Virus record (IMG/VR): IMGVR_UViG_3300030098_001091
Source of the DNA: an uncultured virus (IMG/VR IMGVR_UViG_3300030098_001091)
Lineage: Duplodnaviria; Heunggongvirae; Uroviricota; Caudoviricetes
Reading direction: 5' to 3' (one strand)
DNA length: 64,000 bases
The translations under genes were made by a program, and so were the position numbers. The notes under the pieces were generated by a model. That model did not search any database and was not told the origin of the DNA. It worked only from the letters and a program-made list of their open reading frames with translations. This document shows, one piece after another, positions 5,885 to 34,500 of this stretch (its first letter is position 1; each line of letters starts with the position of its first letter).

Positions 5885-5905
5885 GAAAGTTTCTCCTATT
5901 AGTCT

Positions 5906-13710: not shown

Positions 13711-13794
13711 TAGCAGTACCAAGTCCTTGTAATTTGCAATATGATTATTGCTTGTGTCCACCAAAATGTTCTGTCTTTCATATTCATTCCTTAA

Positions 13795-13867
13795 TAGGCT
13801 GGGTCGGATTCGAACCGACGACTTACTCGTTATGAGCGAGGTGCTCTAACCGCTGAGCTACCAGCCC
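13795..13867 (-). tRNA. tRNA with CAT anticodon (Ile2 or elongator Met)
   Basis: GGGCTGG/CCAGCCT acceptor, TAGCTCAGCGGTTAGAGC D-arm, CTCATAA anticodon loop, GGTTCGAATCC T-arm; no encoded CCA. Confidence 0.9.
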
Positions 13868-13872
13868 AGCAA

Positions 13873-13945
13873 TAGCTCCGGTGGGACTCGAACCCACACT
13901 GTATGGATTTTAAGTCCACTGCCTCTGCCATTGGGCTACGGAGCC
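13873..13945 (-). tRNA. tRNA-Leu(TAA), short variable loop
   Basis: GGCTCCG/CGGAGCT acceptor, GTGGA-CTTAAAA-TCCAT anticodon arm, GGTTCGAGTCC T-arm. Confidence 0.9.
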
Positions 13946-14052
13946 TTACTGAAGTTGACCCTTGGTGAGCAGCAGGGGGTTTGTTTTATAGTTCACCTTA
14001 TCCCTGATTTGCGGTGGGTAACTAATCCATCCTTCAACACTACTCACACAAA

Positions 14053-14125
14053 CACTCCCGGCACGACTCGAACGTGCGACCTACGGTTTAGAAGACCGTT
14101 GCTCTATCCACTGAGCTACGGGAGC
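14053..14125 (-). tRNA. tRNA-Arg(TCT)
   Basis: GCTCCCG/CGGGAGT acceptor, ACGGT-CTTCTAA-ACCGT anticodon arm, GTTCGAGTC T-loop. Confidence 0.92.
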
Positions 14126-14496
14126 AAATCTACTCCAACCGTAAAGTACCCGTCCTCACCCACCTCTGCCCATTGCTTAGTGGCGTAGACTGATTGAATA
14201 ATATTATCATCGACCCAAAGTTTCTTGTTCAAAGAATCGAACACAGCCTTGAGAAAGTTATCAATGTCGGCCTTAGGCATAACCAATTTAGTAGTCTTAG
14301 GCCTACGGATAAACAACTCAACGTCAACCTTGATAGGCTGTTCATAAGGCTGAAAGTCAGGGCCGAGTACGAACTCAATAATATCAACGCACTCACTCCT
14401 AAATGTTTTATAGGGGCCAGCGAAGTAAGCCCCGTGTCGTGAGACACGAGGCCTACTTGCTGCGACGGGACTGATTGGGAAAACCCACTCAGGCAT
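14116..14496 (-). CDS. rusA: RusA-like Holliday junction resolvase
   Basis: PVAASRPR, PKADIDNFLKAVFDSLN, WVDDNII. Confidence 0.85.
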   Translation of the reverse strand: MPEWVFPISPVAASRPRVSRHGAYFAGPYKTFRSECVDIIEFVLGPDFQPYEQPIKVDVELFIRRPKTTKLVMPKADIDNFLKAVFDSLNKKLWVDDNIIQSVYATKQWAEVGEDGYFTVGVDLLP

Positions 14497-16104: not shown

Positions 16105-18549
16105 CTATGCAAAGAAGTATTCCGAATTGATAACAGTCTCCAAATCAAAACTACCTTGGGACGGTGGTTCTGGTAAGTTAACTCCGAGATGTCTTCCGAC
16201 ATCATACTTAAACTGCTCAAGACAATTGTACCTATGCATCCTAAGGAACTCTTCTCTTATTAAATCTCTCATAACAGGGACAAAGTTAGGATGACAACCA
16301 TAGGAATCATGTATCATACAGAAGTCTTCGATATCATAACCGATCATGCGGTCGATTGTCAAGAACATATGAGCAGCATCTAAAGAATGAATGTAGTTTG
16401 GTGCGATAGCTTGACGAGCTGACCGAGGATCAGGGTCATCTGTTCGCACAAAGAAATTTAATTCTTTATTATTAAATAATTTTGCTATTGACCTACGAGT
16501 TTGTGTCTTGGTATAATAGTGCATCACCTTGAATCCACTAGGAGTTACCCAAGACAAGTGTTTATTATTACTACTAGCAATATCAGACACTTCCTTTAGC
16601 CAAGCCTTACCACTATTTGAATTAACCAATGTCTGGTCAAGGGCAGCTTTGATTGCACGAGCAAGTTCAACGATAGCACCACCCCTGTTTTCTTTTGGAA
16701 CCCAATCGAGGTGGCCTTCAACTCTGATATACTTCTGAATACCGTAGAATGTAAGACCGTATGCCTCACACATGGTGCTTCTCTTTGTTACGTTACGATG
16801 TATGCCCTCGTTCCAGTGTTCGGAGAACGCCTTTAGCCAAGAGTTTTCATCAGCCTTGAACAAGCAGTAGTCAGTTGTTTTATCAGCAACAAACTGATAT
16901 AGATCTTCTGGTTTATTAGAAGGGGCAACACCAGTTAGGTGTGCAATAGTTTGATCACGCATGATAGCTGACCAGTGTTGGTTACCATTACACTTACCAT
17001 CTAGTTGGACAGGGATATCCGAGCATCCATCTTCTTTCATGACATCAAAGATAGAACTGAGTCGTTGGAATGACTTGTTCTTTTTCTTTGCATCATCAAT
17101 CCATTCTGTATTTTTATAAGGATCTTCTGATATTCTTTTGAGCATGTCCCAGTTGTCATCTACCCACTGGACTCTCTCATCAAACGGCACCTTATCCTGA
17201 TCAAAGAGGTTGGCAAGGTGTACCTTCCTCCAGTACTCACCCTCTTCTGTTAGTCTTCGTCTATTAGCCAAGCGAATAAGACCACGATCAAAATCAGAAG
17301 ACTGGGGAGATAGTAATTCGCAGACGGTGTATCCACGACCACGGAAATCAAGAGTCCACACATGATAAAAGTATTCCCAATCCAGTAAGTCTTCAGCCAG
17401 TCGAATCCGAACGAGCATCCGTCCTCGTTTCTGTTCGTCTTTATACCATTCCCCCCAAGACTCCTCCTTGAGCTGCATCCATTTGGCCTGCTCTTCTTTA
17501 GTCCCATCTATAGGGTAAGGAGCACTGTACATAAACTCCTCGAACGAATAGAAGGGAAGGTTGGCCATGCCTGTGTTGTTTTCGAACAGAGTCTTCATCA
17601 CCTCCAACACCTCAGTGTTGACAGACCATTCGGTTTTCATTACAGCATTAAGGCCACGGAGCACAAGCTCAGAGGGCTCAGAAAATCTCTGTTGTTTCTT
17701 TTCATCACCGAAAAAATTATCTTTGTATCTCTGAACCACCGGCTTGCGTAGGTTGGTATGAATGTAACCACCACTCGCTGCTTCGGTGTGGTCTATAGGC
17801 GGTATGAGCATCGGTCTATAGACTAGCGTAGAGTTTTGAAGTATCTCATGTCTGTTGTGTAGTTCTTTTAATACCTCAGGATGAAACTCTACAAAGGAAT
17901 AGGTTCTATAACTCTTGCGAACCTTAACCTTTTCTTTTCTAATAATAATTATATTAGATGACGCTGCAATCTCCAGCATGTGGTGGCCGAAGCTATGCTT
18001 CTGTCTTGCACTAAGTTTTATATTCTTCTGCATTTTTTTAGCAAAGGCATTACATCTTTTAATAGTCCAGTTCTTAATAAACTTAGATTGTTTCTTCCAA
18101 TCCTGATAGTGATCTTCTTTGGCACGCTGGTATGCAATGATATCACAGGCATCGCTGGCTATTTGTGTTGCTATCTTTTGTGCAAGCGGCGGTGTATGTA
18201 TGTGATCGGAGTACAGGTGACCCCAGAATGAGGGAGTAAACCAGTGGCGAACGACAGCTCGTATCGTAATGTCTGCTAACTTGCGAGCACCTAGCTCAAG
18301 CAAGGGATACAGCCAGTCGGGGGAACGAGATGCGCCCTCACATATGGTATCAATCCATTGTTGGTAACTCTCTTCCAGCTCACGAACAGATGAATCGATA
18401 AGACATTGCTCGGGGACACCCTCATCTGGCGCACGATCATAGTCTGACCAGTAGCGGTGTCTACCATACTCAAGCATGTCTTGCTCATACCGTAGCTGCC
18501 CGTTGTGCCGGGCTAACTGAACGTCTTCAGTTTCTGCATCCCATATCAT
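16105..18549 (-). CDS. T7-type single-subunit DNA-directed RNA polymerase (RNAP-1)
   Basis: PMLIPP, LDFRGRGY, motif A LDGKCNGNQH, DLY, motif B RNVTKRSTMCEAYG, WVTPSGF, APNYIHSLDAAH, motif C IHDSYG. Confidence 0.97.
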   Translation of the reverse strand: MIWDAETEDVQLARHNGQLRYEQDMLEYGRHRYWSDYDRAPDEGVPEQCLIDSSVRELEESYQQWIDTICEGASRSPDWLYPLLELGARKLADITIRAVVRHWFTPSFWGHLYSDHIHTPPLAQKIATQIASDACDIIAYQRAKEDHYQDWKKQSKFIKNWTIKRCNAFAKKMQKNIKLSARQKHSFGHHMLEIAASSNIIIIRKEKVKVRKSYRTYSFVEFHPEVLKELHNRHEILQNSTLVYRPMLIPPIDHTEAASGGYIHTNLRKPVVQRYKDNFFGDEKKQQRFSEPSELVLRGLNAVMKTEWSVNTEVLEVMKTLFENNTGMANLPFYSFEEFMYSAPYPIDGTKEEQAKWMQLKEESWGEWYKDEQKRGRMLVRIRLAEDLLDWEYFYHVWTLDFRGRGYTVCELLSPQSSDFDRGLIRLANRRRLTEEGEYWRKVHLANLFDQDKVPFDERVQWVDDNWDMLKRISEDPYKNTEWIDDAKKKNKSFQRLSSIFDVMKEDGCSDIPVQLDGKCNGNQHWSAIMRDQTIAHLTGVAPSNKPEDLYQFVADKTTDYCLFKADENSWLKAFSEHWNEGIHRNVTKRSTMCEAYGLTFYGIQKYIRVEGHLDWVPKENRGGAIVELARAIKAALDQTLVNSNSGKAWLKEVSDIASSNNKHLSWVTPSGFKVMHYYTKTQTRRSIAKLFNNKELNFFVRTDDPDPRSARQAIAPNYIHSLDAAHMFLTIDRMIGYDIEDFCMIHDSYGCHPNFVPVMRDLIREEFLRMHRYNCLEQFKYDVGRHLGVNLPEPPSQGSFDLETVINSEYFFA

Positions 18550-22960: not shown

Positions 22961-23422
22961 TCAGCAGACACTGAAGCCGCCGCATTCGCGGAGGAATCCA
23001 ACGAAGTCTTGGACGTGGGATTTGCCTACACGATAGGCATCCTTGAAGTCAGGATCTCCACAGTCCCATGTGATGACATCGCCTTCCTCTTTGAGTAGGT
23101 CTTCCATGGCATCAGCCAAGGCATCACAGTCAGCTTGGTTGTCGAGGCCAGCTCCGTCGTTGAGGCCCATGTGGGCTAAGGTGTCCTCTGGTATGCCAAG
23201 TTCATGACGTTCATTGGCATAATAAATCATGTCAAGAATGGGTCGCCAAGCCCATACGTTAGCCCGGAAGTAAACACCGGGGTTCTCATCGGAGTACTGT
23301 CGATCAGCCTCAAAGAAAGCATCTCGCTCTTCTGTAGTGCAAGTGCTCCACTCAGGTTCAGTAGGCTTTACGCTGTACTCTTTGATCTTCGGGTTGATCC
23401 CGAACACATCCATACCCATCAT
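22961..23422 (-). CDS. Conserved hypothetical phage protein
   Basis: MGMDVFG...GVYFRANVWAWRPI...FLRECGGFSVC; AGGAG SD. Confidence 0.65.
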   Translation of the reverse strand: MMGMDVFGINPKIKEYSVKPTEPEWSTCTTEERDAFFEADRQYSDENPGVYFRANVWAWRPILDMIYYANERHELGIPEDTLAHMGLNDGAGLDNQADCDALADAMEDLLKEEGDVITWDCGDPDFKDAYRVGKSHVQDFVGFLRECGGFSVC

Positions 23423-23754
23423 GATTCTCCTTTGTTGATGAGTTCTTCAAGCTGTTCGATGCGTATCATAGCATCATTCAGCGTTTCAAACAAGAGTTCA
23501 ATGTCAGTTTTAGGTTTTCCTACGACTTTATTGATGAAACTATCATCAGTCTCATGCCAATGAGCATGATAATCGTAAGGAATTGTAGGCTCCGAGGGCA
23601 GTAGCGTAAGCTTGCCCGGAAGCACAGATACCTCGTCCAAACATGTGGTAGGTTTGTGTGCTTCAAAGATATCGATGAGCTCTTGGTCGTTGGCTACATC
23701 AATGTCCCAGAAGTACAGCTCCCTACCGTACTCAACGTCAATCAGTACACGCAT
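23419..23754 (-). CDS. Hypothetical early protein
   Basis: 111 aa, GAGGAG SD; first gene after the structured non-coding block. Confidence 0.55.
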   Translation of the reverse strand: MRVLIDVEYGRELYFWDIDVANDQELIDIFEAHKPTTCLDEVSVLPGKLTLLPSEPTIPYDYHAHWHETDDSFINKVVGKPKTDIELLFETLNDAMIRIEQLEELINKGES

Positions 23755-23765
23755 GGTGTATCTCC

Positions 23766-24400
23766 TCTGTATCTAAGGGATACCAGAGTCAAGGTCGATG
23801 GGTAAACTATTCCCATAAGCCATAACGACAAGCCATGCTTGCTGGTAAGTTGGTATTCAACTTGCCGTCTGACTGCTGCTCCGCATTGATCCGCCCTAGC
23901 TGGGTGCTCACGTTGCTTTGCAACACCTTTACCTCCTAGCAATCCAAGGTATATTCAGTCACAACTACTGCATAACGTTTGCTCTCTACGTTACACAGTA
24001 TCTCTGATATCCCTTAGGTACAGAAAAGGGGTGGGGTTTTGATATAGCAGACCCCATACTGCCGATAGAGTTTCTGGTTTCATTCGCCCAGTCGGACCAT
24101 AAACCAGACGGTCATCAACCGAAAGGTCCAGTCGGGAGTAGCAGTTTAAATCGTCATTAAGAAGATCAACATTTACATCTTCTGCTCAGGACAGAGGTCG
24201 GCAATTCGTCTCCTATTAACCTTACGACCACCTCCAGCAGCCGGATCCTCCTATTCACCTTCGCTGGTAAGGGAGGTCATCATCACACTCCAGCGGGGTA
24301 TACGGGCTTACGCCCCTAGGGTACACCCACCTTGGCGGATGTACCCTAGGGACGGGCGTGTGTCCTTCTGTAGTGGACCACACGCCACGTCTCCGTGGGT
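23766..24400 (-). ncRNA. Candidate large structured non-coding RNA(s)
   Basis: 22-bp inverted repeat (23767-23788 / 24002-24023) enclosing several hairpins, plus further stems up to about 24390, including a 20-bp hairpin at about 24309-24354. G-U pairs in the internal hairpins favour the minus strand. No convincing long ORF. Confidence 0.5.
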
Positions 24401-24409
24401 TGGGTTGGG

Positions 24410-24592
24410 TCAGGCTTTGGCGGCCCGACGTTCGAGCTCAGCAAGAGCCAGCTCACGCTTCTCGTCGCTGGTGTTGTCCATCGTGGCGATGTTCACCAAC
24501 TGGTGCGTGTCGGTCTTGCTGTAGTCAACGACCTTGGTCTTGATGCCGAGGCTCTTGCTGACTGCTGCGATACGCTTGTCGAGATCCTTCAT
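24410..24592 (-). CDS. Small hypothetical protein (60 aa)
   Basis: MKDLDKRIAAVSKSLGIK...ELERRAAKA; AAGGA precedes ATG 24592. Confidence 0.5.
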   Translation of the reverse strand: MKDLDKRIAAVSKSLGIKTKVVDYSKTDTHQLVNIATMDNTSDEKRELALAELERRAAKA

Positions 24593-24728
24593 AGTGAGGA
24601 GTCCTTCCCGGTTTGGGGAAAAGAGCAGGGGGTATCCACGGAAACCCACGATAGGCTCCGCTACGGTTACCCACAGCACGGTATAGACTGTCCGGTCAGT
24701 CATATAACGAAGGGGAGCTTTGCTCCCA

Positions 24729-24925
24729 TAGACCAAAGTGTACCTAGGGTATACCTAGGGTAAACCTTTATTATTATTATACTATCATATACCTCTAGTC
24801 TACCTAGGGTATACTATATACTCCACCTATACCGCCCTACTATATATGGTATACCTGTAGACCCGTGGTATACTACATATGGTAGACCCCCATAGACCGT
24901 ATACTATACCTTATACCTCTATACT
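24729..24925. repeat. Array of short TATAC/TAGAC/CCTAGG repeats
   Basis: About 12 TATAC, about 5 TAGAC/GTCTA and 3 CCTAGG copies at roughly 10-20 nt spacing in a non-coding stretch. Confidence 0.7.
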
Positions 24926-25037
24926 CCACTCTTCCGTGGTGTTCGTTAAGATAGATAATATAATATATCTATCAATATGTGGGACTGGAGACCATCACCT
25001 TTCGATGACAGCCTCCCAAGGGGTTAAAGGTTAGAAG

Positions 25038-25574
25038 TCAAGGACGCAGTTTACGAGCAGCCTCCATCGTAGCACGACGCTTATCGACGGCGGAAGCATT
25101 CTTCGCTTCCAGCCACTCGTGGTAGTCCACCTCGCTCTTATGAATCTTTGCACCGGGATAGATCTGCGAAAGCAGCGTCATCCACCACTGCGTTGGAATG
25201 CTGAACTCCTTTGTCCAAGAGCGATCCGTCGCAGGATGCCAGAGCTCCACCTTATAGTGGTTCTCAAATTCCACGAAGCTTTTGTCTAAGGAACGAACGA
25301 CCAGTTGCGTGTGCTCCTGTGTCCGGAAGACTCCGGGCATTGCAGAAAGCATTTGCTCCATGTCGTTATCAGACAGCCATTGAAGTACGCCGTCTGTGTC
25401 CTTGCCTCGTGAGGCGGGCAGGTACCACCACCCAACTGACATATCCTGAGGAAATACCCGTGCACTCACGCCTTCTGACTTTGGGTCATTGTTCGTGATG
25501 AGAACACAGGAACCGTAAGTCCTGTGTATGCACTGATACCGTGATCTCCCGATAGGGAAAATAAACTGTTCCAT
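25038..25574 (-). CDS. Hypothetical protein downstream of RNAP-2
   Basis: AGGAG SD before ATG 25574 (MEQFIFPIG...), 178 aa; the longer ORF-track version crosses a GC hairpin. Confidence 0.6.
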   Translation of the reverse strand: MEQFIFPIGRSRYQCIHRTYGSCVLITNNDPKSEGVSARVFPQDMSVGWWYLPASRGKDTDGVLQWLSDNDMEQMLSAMPGVFRTQEHTQLVVRSLDKSFVEFENHYKVELWHPATDRSWTKEFSIPTQWWMTLLSQIYPGAKIHKSEVDYHEWLEAKNASAVDKRRATMEAARKLRP

Positions 25575-25603
25575 CTTTTGGAACTCCTGTAGTAGTGAGC
25601 ATA

Positions 25604-25634
25604 ACCGGGGGGCAGGAACGCCCCACCCCCCGGT
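25604..25634 (-). terminator. GC-rich hairpin after RNAP-2 (terminator or processing site)
   Basis: ACCGGGGGGTGGGG-CGT-TCCTGCCCCCCGGT on the minus strand; U-tract is weak. Confidence 0.45.
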
Positions 25635-25639
25635 CAGCA

Positions 25640-27490
25640 TCAATTGCAGATCCGAGATTCTGTGGTGAATCCGATCTTCTTGCAAGCGTCAGGGAACAAG
25701 TCAATCAAGGCCTGAGAATCCGCCTTGACATAGGTCAGGGCATCGCCAACGGGACAGCCGCCAGCGTCGTGGATCCCATACATGTTCCCACCATGCACCG
25801 ACATGTCCTTGAAAGTCAGGACAGTACCACATCGGTGCTCGGCATCCTTCATATGGAGCCGACGTGCCAGCAAAGCTGTACCAGCGTCGGACAACTCAGC
25901 TCGATCCACACGGCATGACCCATTGGTCTCTTTACCGGTGACATGGCTGATGTAGGATGTGTGAACCTTCCAGTTGCCCTTCTTAGAGCTACCCGTATCG
26001 TGCTGCTCGACGTTGGAATCGTCGGAAGACTTGAAACGATACGGAGACATGAGGAGGTCACCGCCAATGAAACGCTGATCCCAAGGAGTGTCATCCCACT
26101 CCTTCAGTGCATCCCTGTTAGCCTTACTAAGCGTAGGGAAGCAGTCATTGAACGCCTCAGACAGTTGTTGAGACATCTTCTTCACTTTGGTGTAAACCAA
26201 GAGGTGATGGGGCTCGCCGTGAAGCAAAGCGTTTCGGAGAGCAGCAGGCATCTCGCTAAGATCATCAAGGGATGTGAAGCCCTCTCGGAGTCCGTGCTGA
26301 CCAACAAGTGCGTCAAACACGGGGCCTGCACCTGAGCCATATGTCTTAGGACTGAAGATCTTCTTCAGTATTAGGAGCATTACGCTTGGTGGCAGACTAG
26401 CGAGGAACGGCAGTCCTAGCTCGCGAATAAACGCAAGCAACACTTTACGAGGGTGTTGATACGCCTCGTTCAGCACATCGATGAGTGCCAGTGACAGATT
26501 TGCACCCGTCATCAGCTCGATGAATTTCGGACCCGACCCTTCTGTATCCAGCTCCATCAGGAATCTGGACTGCCGATCTTTCATCGGCAAACGCTCAAGG
26601 CGACTGAACTCTAATGCCGCCGCATACTCATAAGCGCCACAGCCATCCTTTCCAGTTGCTCCCGCCAGCAAAGACGCTTTCGGGTCGGACAGGATGGAAC
26701 CACACCAATCCTTGAGACTGGCTTTACCGGCGAAGTGCCGCTTCAGCCAGCTCTTAAAGAACACCCAGTGCTGGTGGTCAATCGGCACTGGGTACGCCAG
26801 CTCCATCATTGCACGGCACTGTTGGCCGAACATGGGGTGAAGCGTGCCCGCAGACTTAGCGTACATACGCAAAGCCCAACAGAATGTAGACATGGCGACG
26901 TAGAAGGGCTCGTATTCCGTTGCCGTGGCCATTGGCCGTAGGCGATAGGGGTAGAAGCTCTCCTGAGCAGAGAACCGAGTGTTCTCAGTATTGCCCAATG
27001 GAATGTCACCACGCACCTCCCAAAAGAGGTTGTCCATCTCGCGATTCACCACAAAGGGTGTGCCGCTCAACGTCTGGGCGGCTTCGCGGGCAAGCGGTGT
27101 AGGAGACAAGTCAGTCCGTCGGCTGACTCGTGGAGTCCACAGCCCATCCAGTTTGGGTGGGCTAGTGTGGTGGTGCTGGATGATGGGATTAGACTTCTTA
27201 GCCGAGAGCCATACAGCCAGCACTTCTTCCGCTGCTCCCTGCAAGATTTCCAGTCGACGGTCGTATAGGTCCGGACGCTCCTTAAGGGCATCAATAGCTA
27301 CTCCTTGCTGGTAGAACTCTACGAGCTTGGGATTATCGTTCCGAGCATTGCCGGAGCGAAACGCCACATCGATGTCGATGTTTCGTACCTTACCGCTGAC
27401 TGGAGTCAGCAGGTGGTTCTGCGTGTGTCTTTTGACAAGCTCTCGCTCATCAGGGGTCAAACACACACCCGATTTCTTCGATCCGCTCAA
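25640..27490 (-). CDS. Divergent second T7-superfamily RNA polymerase (RNAP-2, about 616 aa)
   Basis: Collinear T7 RNAP motifs: TPFVVNREM, FYVAMSTFCWALRMYA..LHPM, motif A MELDTEGSG, motif B KKIFSPKTYGSG, RLHMKDAEH, motif C GIHDAGG. GGAGG SD lies 8 nt before TTG 27490; the ORF track extends it to 27598. Confidence 0.8.
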   Translation of the reverse strand: MSGSKKSGVCLTPDERELVKRHTQNHLLTPVSGKVRNIDIDVAFRSGNARNDNPKLVEFYQQGVAIDALKERPDLYDRRLEILQGAAEEVLAVWLSAKKSNPIIQHHHTSPPKLDGLWTPRVSRRTDLSPTPLAREAAQTLSGTPFVVNREMDNLFWEVRGDIPLGNTENTRFSAQESFYPYRLRPMATATEYEPFYVAMSTFCWALRMYAKSAGTLHPMFGQQCRAMMELAYPVPIDHQHWVFFKSWLKRHFAGKASLKDWCGSILSDPKASLLAGATGKDGCGAYEYAAALEFSRLERLPMKDRQSRFLMELDTEGSGPKFIELMTGANLSLALIDVLNEAYQHPRKVLLAFIRELGLPFLASLPPSVMLLILKKIFSPKTYGSGAGPVFDALVGQHGLREGFTSLDDLSEMPAALRNALLHGEPHHLLVYTKVKKMSQQLSEAFNDCFPTLSKANRDALKEWDDTPWDQRFIGGDLLMSPYRFKSSDDSNVEQHDTGSSKKGNWKVHTSYISHVTGKETNGSCRVDRAELSDAGTALLARRLHMKDAEHRCGTVLTFKDMSVHGGNMYGIHDAGGCPVGDALTYVKADSQALIDLFPDACKKIGFTTESRICN

Positions 27491-27684
27491 TTGAGTATCC
27501 TCCAATAGTGGATCAAATACACGCTGGGCCGCCGACCTAGCCGACGTGATACCCAGCGATATTGCTTGCATACCGCACTTAAGTGTACGCAAACACACCG
27601 ATGGTTACAACCTTAATGGTTATTCTTCCTCGTCTTCAGTCCTTCCGTAGACTGATCTAGTCTTCACACTGAGGCTTTAGCCTC

Positions 27685-27714
27685 AAAGCCCACCCAAGAC
27701 CGTTAAGTCTTGGG
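27685..27714 (-). repeat. Hairpin repeat copy 1 (terminator-like or hairpin promoter)
   Basis: AAAGCCCACCCAAGACCGTTAAGTCTTGGG; 29/30 identical to 27929-27958. Confidence 0.75.
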
Positions 27715-27723
27715 CAGGTGAGA

Positions 27724-27930
27724 TCATCGGCGGTTATTCCAGCCAACGGTGCCTAGGGCTACGCCTAGAAGACCACCGATGATCAGCAGAAATGCGGGAA
27801 GATAATCTTCCGGACTACGGTTTGCAAGGAATAGTATCCCTGCCGTCAGGCTAGCAAAACCCCAAAGGATCATGATAGCACAAGTGCATGCTAGAATTAC
27901 GGCCTCTAGCTGGCTCTTGGAAAAGAACAA
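27724..27930 (-). CDS. Small two-helix membrane protein
   Basis: Two hydrophobic segments; start uncertain because there is no clear SD. Confidence 0.4.
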   Translation of the reverse strand: MFFSKSQLEAVILACTCAIMILWGFASLTAGILFLANRSPEDYLPAFLLIIGGLLGVALGTVGWNNRR

Positions 27931-27958
27931 AGCCCACCCAAGACCGTTAAGCCTTGGG
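27929..27958 (-). repeat. Hairpin repeat copy 2 (terminator-like or hairpin promoter)
   Basis: AAAGCCCACCCAAGACCGTTAAGCCTTGGG; followed on the minus strand by TTTGTTCTTTT. Confidence 0.75.
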
Positions 27959-27982
27959 TGGGTGGAACCCTTCCCGGTTCGT

Positions 27983-28162
27983 TTACTCTAGATCGCTGGG
28001 ACGAATGACAATCTTATCATCGCCCTGTCCGTGGATGACAATAGGCTCATCCTTTTCGTCGAGATCTTGGTACTTGTAGTCAGTACCAAGTGCCCTTGCA
28101 ATCAGAATCAAACCAATGAATGGTATGATAATGGTTGCACCGATAATGAAATAGCTAAGCAT
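27983..28162 (-). CDS. Small membrane-anchored protein (59 aa)
   Basis: Hand-translated MLSYFIIGATIIIPFIGLILIARALGTDYKYQDLDEKDEPIVIHGQGDDKIVIRPSDLE; AAAGGAA SD. Confidence 0.55.
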   Translation of the reverse strand: MLSYFIIGATIIIPFIGLILIARALGTDYKYQDLDEKDEPIVIHGQGDDKIVIRPSDLE

Positions 28163-28247
28163 TGCTATTCCTTTCTGCCCACTAAGGGGCTACGGGGGGG
28201 AACAAACACTTTGTTCCCTTACCAAGCCCCAGACAAATTCGCGACCC

Positions 28248-28583
28248 CTAAGTCGATTTTCGTTTCCTCCTCGGTCTGCTTACGATAGCGGCGATGGCTA
28301 ATAACCCCAAGGCACCCGGTGCTGGCAAGATAACAGGATCTCGTTTGCCGAACTGGGAGCCGAATCCTTGCACGGATTCCAACGCTTCACTGATGGAATC
28401 CAACGCCTCTTTCCCAAAGATGGCGAGGATGGCTACCCCCACCAATGTACCGATGAATACCTTCTTGTTCAGCTTCTTCAGTTTCTGCTCTTTGGCTCGA
28501 TTACTCTTTTGACATTTGCTCAGGTCTTCACGGAGTTTCTTGATTTCACTATCCCTACATATCGGACATTCATTAGGTTCCAT
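28248..28583 (-). CDS. Membrane protein with C-terminal PEP-CTERM-like (PAP variant) sorting signal
   Basis: Coiled coil, one transmembrane helix, then LPAPGALGLLAIAAIVSRPRRKRK at the C-terminus; AGGAGG SD. Confidence 0.7.
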   Translation of the reverse strand: MEPNECPICRDSEIKKLREDLSKCQKSNRAKEQKLKKLNKKVFIGTLVGVAILAIFGKEALDSISEALESVQGFGSQFGKRDPVILPAPGALGLLAIAAIVSRPRRKRKST

Positions 28584-28593
28584 TTGTCTCCTC

Positions 28594-31500
28594 CTATGCT
28601 AATTGATCGCTGTCTGGTATCTCCAAAGCTGGGGCCTGCTGGCCTATTTGCCCCACAACGTCCGGAGAAGCCGTCTCAGCCGTTTCGGGCTCTGGGGTAG
28701 GCTGGGGTGCTTCCTGTTCCTGAACGGGCTGTACGGGGCTCTCCGGGCCTCTGACGGGCTGCGGAGGTTCTGCCTGAGGTCTTCCCATATCGAAGCCTCT
28801 TTGGGCCTGCTCTGCCATCAGGTGCTGTTGCCAGTTAGGATGCCTGAGTCCCATCTCTTCGATTATCATTCTCATAGCCTCATCCGTAGTATGATCTAAA
28901 CTATGGGTTGGGTGTCTAAACATTCCTCCCGCAAGGTTAGGACTACCGGTTCGTCTGGAGGAACGAGAGGCTGGGGAATCGGTAAGAACGTGCAGGGGAA
29001 GGCGGACCATGGCATCTCCAATAAAGGGCATGTTTCGCATAGCATTGATCCAATCCGTATTCTCTAATTCTCCACCAATCATTTTTGTAACAAAAGCCCT
29101 CAGGTTATTAAGCATTGACATACCACCAGCCGCTGAAATGAAGGCTCCCGGAGTTCGGGAAGCTGGGTTTTCCACAGTCAACCCGGTAAGGAATTCACCA
29201 ATCATATTCAAGTATCGACCCATGATAGGAAGTCTAAAGCCGTAAGTCATAAAGAATGCTGTTGGACTATCTTCCAGATCTTCCATAATGTCTTCCCATT
29301 CGTCTCCACTAGCCATTCTTAAGAGCATCATATATGTCAGATCCAAAGCACACATGGTAATCAGTCTTACACCCATAGCAGTCAAGCCAAGGTGATTGGC
29401 GTTTCTCATAATGAGCTGACTATTGAATAACATACCATATCGTCTATAGATTTCAAACAGCCTTTCAGATCTAGCATCATCTGTATTAATGTCAAAGGCA
29501 TTGGGGTTCACAAGGATCTCATTTACAAAAGCCTTTTCCATAATCTTAAGACCACCAATAACATCTAAGCTTTTGTGGTATTCTTCTCGATTGGCTAAAG
29601 TATCTGTTTTGCTGAGATAGTTTCTAATCTGATTTGGACTGTAAGTTCCTTTTTCCTTCTTATTATTAAAATCATTAAGTAGGGATGTCAAGCGTGGATA
29701 AGCTGATGCGTCTAAGAAGCCAGCTCTTAACATGTAGGTAATAACTCTACCGTACTTTCGGGGATTAATGCCAGCATCTTTCATATGCTTTTCTAAAGCC
29801 ATGGGATCTGGCAGCACTAAATCAGACTGCTTAAATTTCCCCTCCATAAGCTGACCCTGTTCGTCTAAAGCAAAGTTGACGTAACCATCTCGTTCTTTTT
29901 TGATGGTGAGTTTAGATTGCTTGGGGTCATTCAGGATCGCTACTAACTTAGTAAGTTTCCCAGACTGCATTAATTCAAATACAGACTTGCGGAAAATCTG
30001 AGCACGGCTTGTAGCCATAGCTCCCATAATCCATTGCGAGGGCCTCATCATTTGGTTTCCCCATCCGTCAATAAAGTTAGCGGTTTTACCCAATGCTTTA
30101 TTACCAGAGCTTGCTTGTAATAGCGGTCTGTCATAGTCAGGGACATGAGCCTGAGTCATAACTCCAATTAAATCTAACAGATCTCTAGAGGTTTCTTTAA
30201 ACTCTTCAGTACCTAATGCTGCTGGACCTAAAGCGGTTAATGCTTTAAAGAATCCTCTCCATCCTTGAGGACCAAGTGCAGATGTTAAAGTATTCATTGC
30301 ATACTCTACGGTTATAGTAGCTAACGACAGATTACCACCGAATGCAATCTTAGTAATACCCGGAGCAATCTCAACAAAGAAGTCTTTCCAAGGATCATGC
30401 GGCTGTTGTGTTTGCCGGATGCCTCGAATATACTTATACTTATCCCGGAGAGTGGTGATTGAATCGTTAATGTTTTCTGCGGCAATGCGATCTATTTGAG
30501 TGCCATCCATGTTTCGCCAAGACGCGTCGGTATTGGCTTCTGCAAACAGATTTAACGCATCTCCAATAGTACCGTAGATTTCAAAGTTATCGATCATTAA
30601 CATAAGCTCAGTAACTTCGTCTGCGATTCCTTTCATATAATCGTTAATCAGAGATGTTGGATGTGTTACTATATTATCTAAAATAGTGGAATCAAGTGTA
30701 GCAGCAACCGCAACAGATGGAACAAACCAAGCATCGTTGGGTAAATACATTTGCATTCCTGCTCGGTTAATGAGATTGTACACATGAACATCAATCGGAT
30801 TTTTTCTTCTGAATTTAAAAGGAGCAACCTTGTCTTCGGGGGCCATCCAGCCAATTGCTTGTGCATGTCTATCAGACTTACCGGGTTTGTACAGTTTCAT
30901 TAATCTCTGCTCGAAATCTCCAGATCGATTGCTACCTGTTATGACATCGTTTTGACCACGACGCATAGCTGAAACATCTACTCCTTCTTGACTCAAATGA
31001 GCCCAAGCAATGTTTCCTCTAGTCAGCTGTCTCATAAAGGAATGGAGTCCTTCTTGAGTTTCTCTAATAGCTTTCAGTTCACCGTCTCTCAATCGACGCA
31101 TAAGATTTGTTTGGAAATCAGCAACAGTTTTTTGAGCTTCGGTTTCATTAAGAACCTTATTCCCTTTTGGCTTAAGGCCTTGCCATCCAAGTTCAATGTT
31201 CTGCTCATCCGAATGGTAAGCGATGTACTCAATCAAAACCTTTCTAAAGTTTGGATCTAAAGCTTCCATTTCTTTTACCATACTAGCTGAATCACCAAAG
31301 TCTGGAAGATAACCTAAAGCAAATAAACTTACTGGATCAATATAATCACTGTCCCTAAGCTTTGCAATGAACATCTCGCTTAGGCTATCTCTAAGTGATT
31401 CAAGACCTTCAGCAGAATGTTCGTTAAATTTCCAACCAACTTTGTTTGTTGCGGCATTACCCCAATCTCCAATAGATTTCTTTCTATCAATAAGAACATT

Positions 31501-34500
31501 CATAAAGTCATTTAAATCATCAGCAATAGATTGCATATGACCTAAGACTTTATTTTGTTTTTCCGCAGAAAGATTATCAAACAGAACACGGGCCGGTCCC
31601 TTGATAGCATCCTTAAGATTTACGTTATCAGAATCAACAGCTAACAAAATTGCAAGGTGTATTCCCTTTAACTGCTCTCCTCTTGATTCGGATATCTTAC
31701 CCGCAACTAAAGCTCTTACTCCACCAAAGATTTTTTCAATCTCATCATAAGTAGAGTGTATACTATTTTGGTGGGTTCGAAGCTTTTCCATGTTTCTACT
31801 TAGTGAGGCTGTTCCTTGAAGATTGGTCCAGCTACCCATTGTCGAAACAATCTGATCATCTAATAGCGCGGTAAACCAGACCGGAATAATATGCATAGCA
31901 TTATAAGTAGCACCAGCACCAGAAGGTCCAACTTGGCCAGTAACAATAAATCGCTTAAGGGTATTATGATCTCCGGTTCCTAAGACCTTATCCAAGATCT
32001 TATCAAACCATTTTGTAAAGGCATTTGCTTTGGCTCCAGCTTTTCGAGAAACCTGATTACCAAAACCTCGACTAGTACCTGTAGAGTCTTTAAACTTTTC
32101 AATAAGTACTTGCATTGCCGCAAGACGTTCATCTGTACTTAATTCCAGATCACCTTCTCTAACTCCTTGCCTCATAGCTTTAATGTCTAAAACTATTTTT
32201 TCCTTTTGATCCGGTCCTATTTTCTCAATAGAGCGCCCGTACTTTTTGTATAAGCGTTGCTTTGCTGAAAAGAATTGATACCTAGTTAAGCCAGTTTCTA
32301 GTATAGTATCATGTTCAGCCGTTAATCCTTGACGAACCATAGTAGAATCAACATCAGGTCTAATAATATTGTGAAGGACATTGTGTCTTTCTACTTGTTC
32401 AGGAGAAAGATTATCAAGTCCCTGTTCAGATAAACTATCGTATTCTTTAACCATTGCTTCAAATACTGCATCGTCATATCTAAATGATTCGTCTACACCC
32501 TTAGTTGAGTGAGTTTCTGTATACTCAGGACCAAACTCAAAGGATTGCCTCAGTCTTTGCTCTGGTGCTGGGGCCAGTAAATGTGTTTGAGAATCAAGAT
32601 CAAATCCAAACAAGCGATTCATCAAGCGGTTTACATCAGGATTTTGTAACTCTTCAGACCAAATAAAACCAATCTTCTCAAAGATTCTTCGCATATAACC
32701 AAAGACTTTACTTAACCAAGGCATAGCATCCTTCAAGACGCTATGTTCTTCTACGGTAAAGTCTTCTTTCAATAAAGTATTAAAATCACCGAGAAGATAG
32801 AAAGACCCAAGAGATGCAATAAACTCATCTACGTTTTCCATCGCATACTTTACTTCAGCTTTAGTATCTGCTGTTTCAATTCCACCATGCCAAGCTGTAT
32901 ATAACTTAGTCATTAAGCTATGGCCCTTCTGATTCATTAAAGCTTCAAATCGGTGGTAGGCAGCTGGGTCATTCATAATAAATTCCATTGCGCCTTGGTG
33001 TGCTAATTCGTGAGCAAGGATCAATACTGGGCTAAGTCTGTCATTGGCTCGACGTGCCTGTCCACCAATTGAAATAGTTCTACGACCAGTTCGTGTATCG
33101 GTATCGATTCTACCGCCACGAAGTTCTTTCATGAATTCTAATTTAAGATCCTGCAAGCCCATTGGGTTGAATAGGTACATATTAACAATAAGCTTTCGCA
33201 TCATGCGAGCCTGTCTCTCATCTATATTACCTTCGTCTACCATGTCTTGGATATTTTGATTAAGTTCTCTGATCGGTCTGAACCCTGTCTCATTAGCCAT
33301 CTCTTCCATTCGTTCGTACTTACGATGGAAGTTTCTCTTTCGGATCTTGGCTCTGCTTCTTATTGAGAAAGCTCTTTGTTCAACTTCAAGAGGATTAATA
33401 TCTCCCAATGTATCCAGCTCCATTTTACCTGAGGGTATATTTAACTGATCATTCACGGCAGATTCTATTGCTTGCTTCGCTAGATACTCTAAGGCAGCTT
33501 CTCCAGTTTTTCCATAGAGATTTTCAATCCGAGTCAAATGGTGGCTAGGAATAGATTCTAAATTCCACAGGTTTTTAGACCTAAGCCATGATATAAAGGC
33601 GCGCTCGGTTGAGGTGGCGTGTCTAATATGTCCAGCCTCTACACTATCTCCCAGATGGTTTAACGCAGCTGTATTTCCTCTATAGGAGACTGATGTACTT
33701 TCCCCTTGTTTAGTAATAATGTCTACAGTTTCCAACTGGTTTATAGTAATCGGATCTTTCAATTCCGCAACCGAAGCTGTGGCATCTCCCTCTTGATTAC
33801 CGTATTCAACCGCTACGGGTATCACTGCCAATTTATCAGCACGGACACCAAACTCATTCCATAATATCATATTATAAAGCGATAGCTGCTTAGACCACTC
33901 TGATTTCTTTTCTTCTCGGATCACGGTTTCTCCGGTATCCGTTTGTTTCTTAGTCTTTACATCGTAGATAGTAATTTCACCGGTTGTTCTATTTCTAGTT
34001 AAGACATCAAACTCACCCCGAAGACCAATCTTTGTATCCATTATCATTACTTTATCGACCATAATCTCATCCGTTTCCAAGATCTTCTTCTTGAGGTCAA
34101 GCATCTGGTCTATAAACTTATTAAACTTTTCTTCAGTATCGATATAAGGTTTGTCTCGTTCTGTTCTATAGGATTCCCAATTAGGTCGTTCTTCAGATCT
34201 GAAGACATCTCTAACCAAGTTGTCAATATTCTCTCCGACAGTAAATGCATTTTGAAGGACAGGATCGTTATTCATTTCTTGAATTGTTTTATCTAATTCA
34301 TTAATCTTAAACTCTAAAGACTTAACAGAAGAATCTGTTTCCGGGATTCCTGATTGGATAAGTTCATCTCTATCTTTTCTAAGTTTAGTTAAAAGATATC
34401 TAGAGTTGGTACGAATAGACTGGGTAACGCTTGTGGCAGGTCCAGAATATGCTTTAAATTCCTCTTGCCTATTTTTAATCCGATCAAAGATAGTTTCTCT

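What the first reader, a model, noticed from the sequence alone, without database searches (positions are those of the whole stretch)
23766..24024. Multi-hairpin RNA of about 255 nt closed by a 22-bp inverted repeat
CTGTACCTAAGGGATATCAGAG (24023-24002) pairs with CTCTGGTATCCCTTAGATACAG (23788-23767), with one mismatch and one G-U. Inside on the minus strand are a 13-bp stem TACTGTGTAACGT/ACGTTATGCAGTA (two G-U) and the stems TGACTG/CAGTCA, GTTGC-AAA-GCAAC, AAGTTG/CAACTT, CAAGC/GCTTG and ATGGG/CCCAT. It looks like an RNase III-excisable ncRNA, and the closing stem ends at the SD of the first early gene. I cannot assign it to a known family. A 39-aa ORF with an AGGAGGT SD lies inside and is an alternative reading.
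Basis: partly seen in the sequence, partly recalled or inferred. Interest (0 to 1): 0.7.

Follow-up and report, generated by a model that had tools for sequence, protein, structure and literature searches.

The report
Stem-clamped structured RNA in marine phage
A conserved, intricately folded non-coding RNA of about 260 bases sits just ahead of the small early genes of a marine T7-like phage, and it may be a new, stem-clamped relative of the manA RNAs that were recently reported to build RNA-only cages.

Summary
Window 24028..23762 (minus strand) folds far better than shuffles (z -5.86, 0 of 200).

Eleven distinct copies from marine viral and metagenome contigs keep the fold. 21 of 78 pairs show compensatory changes, and 98.1% of cells are paired against 36-45% when partners are slid. 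Pairing is strand-specific.

The internal ORF is not conserved: 39, 23 or 2 codons.

Homology stops at the two ends of the closing stem, and the flanking genes differ between phages.

Rfam has no family for the window copy. One divergent copy gives a weak full-length match to manA RNA (19.9 bits). A related phage carries a true manA RNA (79 bits) at the same locus.

Best reading: a non-coding RNA module, possibly a clamped manA-like variant, probably cut out at its 23-31-bp stem by RNase III. The cutting and the function are inferred, not shown.

The parts
24002..24028 (-). P1 closing stem, 5' arm (22-nt core 24023..24002 plus a 5-nt U-rich extension)
   Evidence: 8 of 25 P1 pairs show compensatory changes across 11 copies.
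23966..24000 (-). P2, a variable hairpin (13-bp stem in the window). Homologues carry other hairpins at this place.
   Evidence: a local hairpin is predicted in all 10 copies, weak (-2.8 to -4.3 kcal/mol) in three.
23951..23965 (-). Invariant block GUUG + GUGACUGAAUAU. The second part matches the most conserved block of the manA consensus.
   Evidence: Invariant in 11 of 11 copies. manA consensus printed. Model alignments.
23930..23951 (-). P4 hairpin. Its 3' strand is the Shine-Dalgarno-like AGGAGGU.
   Evidence: 2 of 6 pairs compensatory (L030), one U-A to U.G (L072). AGGAGG becomes AGGAGA or AGGGGG.
23924..23930 (-). AAAGGUG. It can pair with ACCUU/CUU near the 3' end, and it holds the GUG of the rejected ORF.
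   Evidence: Invariant, so the pairing is untestable by covariation.
23875..23924 (-). P6-P8 arm, nearly invariant. Its inner fold is uncertain.
   Evidence: 1 compensatory pair. 3 pairs are each broken in one copy.
23818..23874 (-). P9, a long hairpin (16 pairs) with a conserved loop CCAACUUAC
Evidence: 7 of 16 pairs compensatory (helices 9 and 10).
23798..23816 (-). P10 hairpin (ATGGG/CCCAT)
   Evidence: 3 of 7 pairs compensatory.
23789..23797 (-). CGACCUUGA. CGAC can pair with GUUG (23962..23965), and CUU with AAG.
   Evidence: L072 has CAAC, turning U.G into U-A. Aligned to the manA closing helix by model R2.
23762..23788 (-). P1 closing stem, 3' arm. The outer 5 nt are the GAGGAG ribosome-binding site of the next gene.
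23807..23926 (-). 39-codon ORF inside the RNA (rejected as a gene)
   Evidence: 39 codons in 4, 23 in 5 and 2 in 1 of 10 copies. L072 reads GTG TTG TGA.
23419..23754 (-). Downstream 111-codon ORF. It is present after the element in only some phages.
   Evidence: the downstream neighbour differs in 8 contexts.
24024..24057 (-). Terminator-like hairpin plus U run directly upstream. It overlaps the outer end of P1.
   Evidence: Read from the sequence. Shared with G001 only.
24135..24190 (-). Upstream module CCUGAG-hairpin-UGAC-AAACU. The same module directly precedes the element in L023 and the true manA RNA in L080.
   Evidence: one match in the window, 0.05 expected.

Best explanation
The stretch is a self-contained gene for a structured non-coding RNA. 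It is read from the minus strand of a roughly 70-kb marine T7-like phage, between the end of the late region and the block of small early genes.

A core of about 215 nt forms a multi-helix fold: variable hairpin P2, conserved block GUGACUGAAUAU, hairpin P4, a three-part arm, long hairpin P9 and hairpin P10. A long helix P1 made from the two ends clamps this core shut.

Shown: the fold is conserved and strand-specific, the ORF is not conserved, and the module has sharp borders at the ends of P1 while its neighbours change.

Inferred (about 0.5): P1, at two or more helical turns of near-perfect duplex, is a substrate for the host's RNase III. Cutting would release the core as a stable RNA. Where the ribosome-binding site of the next gene lies in the outer part of P1, as in the window, cutting would also free that site.

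Inferred (about 0.5): the core is a diverged relative of manA RNA (RF01745) with an added outer clamp. If so, it may assemble into multimers as manA RNAs do in vitro. What the RNA does in infection is unknown. Its place among the first sequences transcribed, next to tRNA-like and Y-RNA-like genes in sister phages, suggests it acts on host RNA or translation machinery rather than regulating one gene.
For: Fold: z -5.86, -4.24, -4.47 and -6.63, with 0 of 200 shuffles as good in each case.

Covariation on 11 distinct copies: 21 of 78 pairs have changes on both sides and 98.1% of cells are paired, against 35.9-44.9% with partners slid. 0 of 500 shuffles reach the count. Comparable results on MAFFT alignments that were not fitted to a model: 7 of 78 pairs and 15 of 78 pairs.

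Strand: 98.5% paired on the minus strand against 86.9% on the other, with 94 G.U cells of 780.

ORF: 39, 23 or 2 codons.

Borders: similarity to G001 and four other loci stops at window 23765/23766, and 8 different downstream contexts were seen.

P1 spans 23-31 positions in 10 of 10 copies. In L072 its outer part has a wholly different sequence yet still pairs.

The ribosome-binding site of the next gene lies in the outer P1 in the window, L006, L030 and L072.

manA link:
- The Rfam manA model aligns full-length (1-192) to the L030 copy at 19.9 bits.
- A model built from one true manA RNA aligns full-length to the same coordinates at 10.7 bits. The best chance hit in an 80-kb control was 8.3 bits.
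- A related phage (L080-L083) has manA at 79 bits, above the threshold of 55.2, in the equivalent non-coding gap.
- The invariant block matches the most conserved manA block.

Sequence inside the element occurs in contigs of marine RNA libraries from two studies.
Against: No RNA ends were obtained, and the RNA-library data are low-depth contigs that may be DNA carry-over. One of them runs from the P1 3' arm into the next gene without a break.

The 11 copies fall into about four clades, so there are few independent changes. Alignment A8 was fitted to the model's structure.

Helices in the invariant core cannot be tested, and three pairs of the P8 region are each broken in one copy.

manA link:
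- The window's own copy gives no manA hit at E up to 10.
- It scores only 2.1 bits with the single-sequence manA model, which is below background.
- The element's model does not find the true manA RNA (0.5 bits).
- Plain local alignment is not above shuffles (z 0.1-2.3).
- The middle domain differs.

In L008 the next feature is another RNA, and in L007 the next gene starts about 30 nt further on. Freeing a ribosome-binding site therefore cannot be the conserved role.
Confidence: 0.5

Rival explanations
1. It is a new family of phage non-coding RNA unrelated to manA. The shared blocks and the shared locus are coincidence or convergence, and the rest of the reading (clamped, probably processed RNA) stands.
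For: No significant manA score for the window copy. No reciprocal detection. Local alignment at chance level. The locus holds different structured RNAs in different relatives.
Against: Two models give full-length, collinear alignments to the same coordinates of the L030 copy. An 11-of-12 match to the most conserved manA block sits in the matching structural position. A true manA RNA sits at the same locus of a related phage, behind the same upstream module.
Confidence: 0.4
2. It is a cis-acting leader. The long P1 hides the ribosome-binding site of the first downstream gene, or shields the 5' end of the early mRNA from decay. The core acts as a sensor or folding platform, a riboswitch-like reading as was first proposed for manA RNAs.
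For: The ribosome-binding site lies inside the outer P1 in 4 contexts, with unrelated sequences in L072. Weinberg et al. 2010 rated manA a riboswitch candidate located in 5' UTRs (passages).
Against: P1 has 23-31 pairs, too stable to open and close with a ligand (inference). The downstream neighbour is another RNA in L008/L004/L018, and in L007 the gene has its ribosome-binding site about 30 nt outside the stem. The downstream genes are unrelated to each other.
Confidence: 0.25
3. It works as DNA: a miniature inverted-repeat mobile element, or a packaging, replication or promoter site at the junction of genome ends.
For: 22-bp terminal inverted repeats, sharp borders and variable flanks. Many contigs break in or near it. 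It lies near a repeat-rich stretch that may mark the genome ends.
Against: There is one copy per genome, always at the same locus: one hit in the window, and the two copies on the 70-kb contig are overlapping ends of one circle-like assembly. No target duplications were seen (by eye). Compensatory changes occur in inner helices, and the many G.U pairs would be C.A on the other strand. Contig breaks are explained by strain variation next to a conserved stretch.
Confidence: 0.05
4. It encodes a small protein of 39 residues, translated from GUG behind AGGAGGU.
For: A good ribosome-binding site and spacing. The first 19 codons are identical in 9 of 10 copies.
Against: The ORF stops after 2 codons in L030 and L072 through different stop codons, and after 23 codons in 5 copies through a 1-nt deletion. 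The identical codons are also identical in nucleotide sequence, so they say nothing about coding. The AGGAGG changes in step with its pairing partner. The site and start codon are paired in the conserved fold.
Confidence: 0.03

Closest known systems
manA RNA motif (Rfam RF01745)
   Same: Found in marine phages. About 200 nt with many helices. A variable 5' hairpin is followed by the block GUGaCUGAAUAA, then a hairpin, UAAgG, a multi-helix middle, a long hairpin with GACG/CGUC, a last hairpin with an A/U-rich loop, the closing-helix 3' strand and a short tail that may form a pseudoknot (consensus; alignments). A true manA RNA occupies the same locus in a related phage.
   Different: The scores are far below the family threshold. 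The middle domain is one irregular arm here, against three hairpins in manA. The manA-type closing helix is only 4 pairs (GUUG/CGAC). An extra 23-31-bp outer clamp encloses everything. The host phages are T7-like podoviruses, not the T4-like cyanophages named by Weinberg et al. 2010.
RNase III processing sites of phage T7 early mRNA and the processing stalks that flank bacterial rRNAs (recalled from textbook knowledge, no call)
   Same: A duplex of about two or more helical turns in a polycistronic early transcript of a T7-like phage. As in rRNA stalks, the duplex is made from sequences on both sides of a structured RNA, so that cutting releases it.
   Different: T7 sites are local hairpins of about 50-60 nt with an internal loop, and they enclose no functional RNA. 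Cleavage here is untested.
Phage-associated large ornate RNAs (GOLLD, ROOL)
   Same: Complex conserved folds of unknown function, carried by phages, often near tRNA genes. They form RNA-only multimers (abstract of bioRxiv 10.1101/2024.12.08.627333 seen in the listing; the tRNA association is recalled).
   Different: Those RNAs are 2-3 times longer and gave no Rfam match here.
Correia and other miniature inverted-repeat elements that are transcribed and cut by RNase III (recalled)
   Same: Terminal inverted repeats of about 20-26 bp that form a long duplex in RNA, with sharp borders.
   Different: Single copy at a fixed locus, and an inner structure kept by compensatory changes.
Bacterial Y RNA (YrlA, RF02553)
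   Same: The ends pair into a long stem that closes a structured domain. A YrlA-like RNA lies directly 3' of the element in sister phages.
   Different: No YrlA match to the element itself. It has no tRNA-like domain. No Ro60/TROVE gene was found in 0 of 4 related phage records.

Membership tests
manA RNA (RF01745) | Score at or above Rfam's gathering threshold (55.2 bits) | tested here: not met
   Window copy: no manA hit at E up to 10. L030 copy: 19.9 bits, E 0.16-0.3. For comparison, L080 scores 79 bits.
manA RNA (RF01745) | Conserved 5' core: GUGaCUGAAUAA, hairpin, UAAgG | tested here: met
   The window has GUGACUGAAUAU, the P4 hairpin and UAAAGG, invariant in 11 of 11 copies. Compared by eye with the consensus printed, and aligned so by model R2.
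manA RNA (RF01745) | Collinear set of helices over the whole model (closing helix, long hairpin, last hairpin, tail) | tested here: inconclusive
   Full-length alignment to L030 at 10.7 bits, against a best chance hit of 8.3 bits in 80 kb. The window copy scores 2.1 bits, within background. The reverse search fails.
manA RNA (RF01745) | Middle domain of three hairpins inside a helix | tested here: not met
   The consensus fold gives one irregular arm. The region is almost invariant, so the fold itself is uncertain.
manA RNA (RF01745) | Self-assembly into closed oligomers through kissing loops (Ren et al., bioRxiv 2026) | not testable with these tools
   The only finding is a 4-nt complementarity between the P9 and P10 loops (AACU/AGUU), seen by eye. 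It is invariant and has no covariation.
RNase III processing stem | Near-perfect RNA duplex of about 20 bp or more | tested here: met
   23-31 positions with 1-3 mismatches in 10 of 10 copies. L072 has 18 pairs, then a 6x6 internal loop, then 5 more pairs (by eye).
RNase III processing stem | Staggered cleavage in the stem, dependent on RNase III | not testable with these tools
   One search gave contigs only, with no read ends.
Small protein gene | Reading frame kept among homologues | tested here: not met
   39, 23 or 2 codons. A different early stop in L072.
Miniature inverted-repeat mobile element | Several copies at different sites, with target-site duplication | tested here: not met
   One copy in the window. 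The same locus in all contigs. No flanking direct repeats seen.
Any other Rfam family | Match at gathering score | tested here: not met
   Only three tRNAs in the whole window. The weak hits in 23300..24700 all have E of 0.3 or more.

The most novel reading that the evidence does not exclude
The element is a clamped precursor form of a manA-class RNA. RNase III cuts the long outer stem out of one of the first transcripts the phage makes. The released core of about 215 nt then assembles, through loop-loop contacts, into closed multimeric RNA particles inside the infected cell. There they would capture or shield a host or phage component. That would give the cage-forming manA RNAs, so far known only from test-tube assemblies, a natural maturation pathway and a defined moment of action.
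Probability: 0.15. Interest if true: 0.85.

Novelty: new variant of a known kind. Interest (0 to 1): 0.62.

Why it matters
manA RNAs have been an orphan class since 2010: riboswitch candidates without a ligand. A 2026 preprint reports that they build RNA-only decamers and a 60-subunit shell in vitro, but nothing is known of their biology.

A related module in T7-like phages offers a concrete system. It has a fixed place ahead of the early genes, sharp borders and a long processing-type stem. One can ask when the RNA is made, how it is cut out, whether it multimerises in cells, and what the phage loses without it.

Even if the manA link fails, this is a well-supported new phage RNA family. It also shows that the head of the early region in this phage group is a swap-site for RNA genes: this element, manA, Y-RNA-like and tRNA-like modules, and a pistol ribozyme.

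Tried and rejected
- **Isolated phages.** Nucleotide and protein searches in the phage collection found no match.
- **Exact-pattern scans.** Scans of viral contigs with three further patterns added no new clade beyond those listed. The 26-mer is absent from bacterial genomes. The 7 bacterial hits to a 19-mer share only 19-25 nt, at about the number expected by chance (my estimate: about 4), and were dropped.
- **Protein searches for the neighbours.** These found only G001.
- **Distribution among relatives.** The element's model R1 over 80 related phage loci and the window found it in 6 of 80 loci and nowhere else in the window. The 16.7-bit hit in L089 was not followed.
- **Single-sequence manA model R2.** With default filters it found only itself among 82 sources.
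- **RNA libraries.** Only four low-depth contigs lay on the stretch, with no ends and no strand. No cover of P1 or the upstream region was seen, which proves nothing.
- **A trans target.** The complement of the conserved P9 loop occurs in the window only as the element's own opposite strand.
- **A loop-to-junction pairing AGUUG/CAACU.** It is broken in 2 of 10 copies (L008, L019), so I dropped it.
- **Ro60/TROVE gene.** Found in 0 of 4 related phage records.
- **Earlier notes of this scan.** Nothing on record.
- **Prior description in print.**
  - Searches listed nothing on this element.
  - The catalogue of 10,006 candidate viral RNAs (PMC10690425, passages read) may contain it. Six of its supplementary files were searched for six sample numbers, covering all eight contig names that hold the element, without a hit. 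Three files could not be searched.
- **Weak xrRNA hit.** The flavivirus xrRNA hit (20.9 bits, E 0.31) is taken as chance.

Full report
**Setting**

All long ORFs of the window lie on the minus strand. PHROG matches identify a T7-like podovirus:
- major capsid protein (63396..62158)
- tail tube proteins
- large terminase (52199..50511)
- T7-type RNA polymerase (18549..16105)
- gp2.5-like single-strand-binding protein
- primase/helicase and DNA polymerase
- head-tail connector (2669..1083)

A 5112-codon ORF (43932..28594) is followed by a stretch of 50-54% G+C. That stretch holds ORFs of 652, 215 and 108 codons. About 650 nt without a convincing ORF come next (24410..23754), then a run of small ORFs leading to the RNA polymerase gene.

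The finding lies at the downstream end of this gap. The window matches nothing in the collection of isolated phages, by DNA or by the 652-residue protein. Eight DNA runs labelled marine metagenome hold the whole stretch.

**The observation**

The arms 24023..24002 and 23788..23767 pair over 22 positions with one C.A mismatch and one G.U. The pairing runs five positions further out, so the GAGGAG in front of the ATG at 23754 is part of the stem.

The 259-nt RNA folds at -97.3 kcal/mol against -69.9 +/- 4.7 for shuffles (z -5.86, 0 of 200).

**Relatives**

The nearest held virus record (G001) matches window 24062..23766 at 93%. The match then jumps: the 111-codon ORF that follows the element in the window is missing there.

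Exact-pattern scans found further copies:
- a core 26-mer in 6 stretches of viral contigs
- a 22-mer in 8 metagenome stretches
- a pattern made only of the two inner halves of the closing stem, which found 4 more viral contigs. These carry one identical but much more diverged copy, called L030 here.

An alignment of three phage RNA polymerases then fetched 80 related loci with 47-98% polymerase identity. A profile and a covariance model of the element found it in 6 of those 80 loci. One is a further variant, L072.

This gives 11 distinct full-length copies in about four clades. There is one copy in the window. The two copies on the 70,195-bp contig are the overlapping ends of a circle-like assembly that differ by strain-level insertions, so that is also one copy per genome.

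**Structure and covariation**

- RNAalifold on nine copies gave 78 pairs, 7 of them with compensatory changes.
- With L030 added, 15 of 78 pairs were compensatory and 98.5% of cells were paired, against 35-45% when the 3' partners are slid by 1-3 columns. 0 of 500 shuffles reached the number of covarying pairs.
- On a model-based alignment of all 11 copies, which leans towards the model, 21 of 78 pairs were compensatory and 98.1% were paired, against 36-45% slid.

Support is strongest for four helices:

| Helix | Pairs with compensatory change |
|---|---|
| P1 | 8 of 25 |
| P9 (long hairpin, 23874..23818; helices 9 and 10 of the call) | 7 of 16 |
| P10 | 3 of 7 |
| P4 | 2 of 6 |

P9 includes a C-G to U-G to U-A series. 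In L072 the outer half of P1 has an unrelated sequence that still pairs.

The fold belongs to the minus strand. 94 of 780 cells are G.U, and pairing drops from 98.5% to 86.9% on the other strand.

P2 is a hairpin of different sequence and length in each clade. The core between 23965 and 23875 is nearly invariant, so its helices cannot be judged. Three pairs there are each broken in one copy.

For example, G to A in CAGTCA occurs in 5 of 10 copies and covaries with a different partner.

**The ORF**

From the conserved GUG the frame runs 39 codons in 4 copies, 23 in 5 copies and 2 in 1 of 10 copies. L072 also stops after two codons, through a different stop codon.

The Shine-Dalgarno-like AGGAGG is the 3' strand of P4. 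It changes to AGGAGA or AGGGGG in step with, or tolerated by, its partner strand. The ORF reading is rejected.

**A module with sharp borders**

Similarity between phages ends at the outer ends of P1 on both sides. Eight different downstream contexts were seen:
- the 111-codon ORF
- a homologue of the window's 153-codon ORF, behind a TGTTATAAT promoter-like site
- four other small ORFs or sequences
- a Y-RNA-like gene
- in L030, a small ORF and then tRNA-Arg

Upstream contexts vary as well. P1 spans 23-31 positions in 10 of 10 copies. In four clades (the window, L006, L030 and L072) the ribosome-binding site of the next gene lies in the outer part of P1. In others it does not, and in one the neighbour is an RNA. 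Hiding that site is therefore a frequent by-product or secondary use, not the conserved function.

**Known families**

Rfam at gathering scores finds only three tRNAs in the window. At E up to 10 nothing credible lies on the element.

In sister loci the same neighbourhood holds other RNA genes:
- a pistol ribozyme: 42.9 bits, threshold 34.5
- a full-length Y-RNA-like match directly 3' of the element: 40.3 bits, below its threshold of 69, E about 1e-6
- tmRNA-like acceptor/T-arm mini-domains
- tRNAs

The decisive lead came from a scan of six relatives that lack the element. L080 carries a manA RNA at 79 bits (threshold 55.2) in the equivalent non-coding gap. The same RNA is present in 4 of the 80 loci. 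The same upstream module, CCUGAG-hairpin-UGAC-AAACU, precedes manA in L080 and the element in L023 and the window.

The L030 copy had already given a weak but full-length manA match: model positions 1-192 at 19.9 bits, E 0.16-0.3.

**Testing the manA link**

For the link:
- A model built from the single L080 manA RNA, with the Rfam structure transcribed, aligns over its whole length to the same coordinates of L030. It scores 10.7 bits, above the best of 52 chance hits (8.3 bits) in an 80-kb control.
- The alignments are collinear. P2 takes the place of the manA 5' hairpin. GUUG/CGAC takes the place of the manA closing helix, and L072 has CAAC there, turning U.G into U-A. The block GUGACUGAAUAU matches 11 of 12 positions of the most conserved manA block. 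P4, P9 and P10 fall on the corresponding manA hairpins, and CUUGA falls on the 3' tail.

Against the link:
- The window copy scores 2.1 bits with that model, which is background.
- The window copy has no Rfam manA hit.
- The element's own model does not see the L080 manA RNA.
- The single-sequence manA model with default filters finds nothing but itself.
- Plain local alignment is at chance level.
- The middle domain differs.

The window and L030 copies are homologous beyond doubt (237 bits with the element's model). The link stands or falls with L030. I put it at about even odds.

On this reading the element is a manA-type core with one added feature: the long outer clamp P1, which encloses both the 5' hairpin and the 3' tail.

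**What is known of manA**

- Weinberg et al. 2010 (PMC2864571, passages read) describe it as a riboswitch candidate. It was found almost only in marine metagenomes and in T4-like cyanophages, in 5' UTRs of varied genes, with an uncertain pseudoknot.
- A cyanophage genome paper repeats this (PMC9964418, passages).
- A review of former orphan riboswitches does not mention it (PMC7266159, 0 occurrences).
- Ren et al. (bioRxiv 10.64898/2026.07.01.735769; passages, abstract and section 8 read) report cryo-EM structures. manA RNAs under 200 nt form octamers, decamers and a 60-subunit icosahedral-like shell in vitro. These are built from pentamers held by kissing loops, and the peripheral helices differ between variants.

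**How it most likely works**

Shown: a conserved, strand-specific, non-coding fold with sharply bounded ends that pair.

Inferred from established knowledge (recalled, no call): bacterial RNase III cuts duplexes of about two helical turns. It processes T7 early transcripts, and it releases rRNAs from stalks formed by their flanks. P1 fits that description, so the core is probably released as a stable RNA. The neighbouring message would be trimmed, and in some phages its ribosome-binding site would be freed.

The trans function is unknown. Two things argue for an RNA that acts on its own rather than as a regulator of one gene. First, the module is exchanged as a unit with manA and sits beside tRNA-like and Y-RNA-like genes. 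Second, the non-coding gaps at this locus in other relatives are also strongly structured: 10 of 17 gaps tested have z of -2.9 or lower.

**Transcription evidence**

This is thin. Contigs of 164 and 186 nt from RNA libraries of two studies lie inside the element (23829..23966). They carry a diverged variant whose five substitutions all fall in the 5' strand of P9. Read by hand, with the loose ends, the variant still pairs. A third contig, identical to the window, runs from the P1 3' arm into the next gene. Such libraries can contain DNA, and contigs show no ends.

**Verdict**

The interpretation as a non-coding RNA is supported, the ORF alternative is rejected, and RNase III excision is plausible but untested. 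The element is a new RNA family by Rfam's measure and probably a clamped variant of manA RNA. I could not determine the promoter, the genome ends, the host or the function.

Noticed in passing
window 27598..25640 (-), within the 50-54% G+C stretch 24200..28600: The 652-codon ORF has no Pfam, PHROG or PDB sequence match. It shows a weak local likeness to the palm motifs of the phage's own T7-type RNA polymerase (E 0.009 for the single comparison). Sister phages G002 and G003 carry a 722-codon second RNA-polymerase-like ORF at the matching place upstream of the element (E about 1e-81 to phrog_414). This may be a second, divergent single-subunit RNA polymerase at the end of the late region.
   Followed up: partly
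window 43932..28594 (-): A single ORF of 5112 codons follows a 1385-codon ORF, downstream of the terminase gene. It is presumably a giant internal virion protein of a T7-like phage. I did not analyse it.
   Followed up: no
window 24386..24304 (-): Three hairpins lie right after the stop of the 108-codon ORF. They are conserved across all clades, with compensatory changes in the second one (CCCTAGGG/CCCTAAGG/CCCTCAGG/CCCTTGGG arms, by eye). The third is a GNRA-type GGGC-GUAA-GCCC. They could be a late terminator or a junction signal.
   Followed up: partly
window 24990..24740 (-): An A+T-rich stretch full of short GTATA-type repeats, with TACCTAGGGTA three times and two sigma-70-like sites. An 18-nt motif here recurs at 5904 and 51578 (family D9). 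This could be the region of the genome ends, an origin or phage promoters.
   Followed up: partly
window 24190..24135 (-); L023 1347-1393; L080 2784-2841 and 3549-3605: A module CCUGAG-hairpin-UGAC-AAACU(G)CUACUCC precedes structured RNA genes: the element, manA and a T-arm-like unit. The window has one match against 0.05 expected. It may be a promoter or a processing signal, and it has no Rfam match.
   Followed up: partly
L008 1871..1763 (-) = L050 212-320; L008 1494..1413 (-) = L050 589-670; L080 3166-3247: A full-length Y-RNA-like (YrlA) match starts at the last bases of the element (40.3 bits, below the threshold of 69, E about 1e-6), with T-arm and D-arm mimics. Mini tmRNA-like acceptor/T-arm domains are also present (41-51 bits, threshold 47). 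No Ro60/TROVE gene was found in 0 of 4 phage records.
   Followed up: partly
L030 1105-1166 = L052 6239-6300: A pistol ribozyme match above threshold (42.9 bits against 34.5) lies about 330 nt upstream of the element in the G002/G003 phages, though its last helix aligns poorly.
   Followed up: no
window 27684..27735 and 27928..27979: Two 52-nt direct repeats (81% alike), each holding a hairpin CCCAAGAC-CGTTAAG-TCTTGGG, flank the 68-codon membrane-protein-like ORF.
   Followed up: no
L061, L067, L072, L073, L095, L098 (gaps listed): Non-coding gaps a few kb upstream of the RNA polymerase gene in relatives without the element fold much better than shuffles (z -3.7 to -9.4 in 9 of 17 gaps tested, 30 shuffles each). 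Some hold tRNAs. The locus looks like a general site for RNA genes.
   Followed up: partly
window 13794..14126 (-): A cluster of three tRNA genes, Met(CAT), Leu(TAA) and Arg(TCT), lies between replication genes.
   Followed up: no
L049 (end) against L041 (start) of the 70,195-bp contig: The two ends of this 'linear, 100% complete' record overlap at 95-99% identity, with insertions and deletions placed exactly at module borders, for example an ORF inserted between the element and the Y-RNA-like gene. This is strain variation captured in one assembly.
   Followed up: yes
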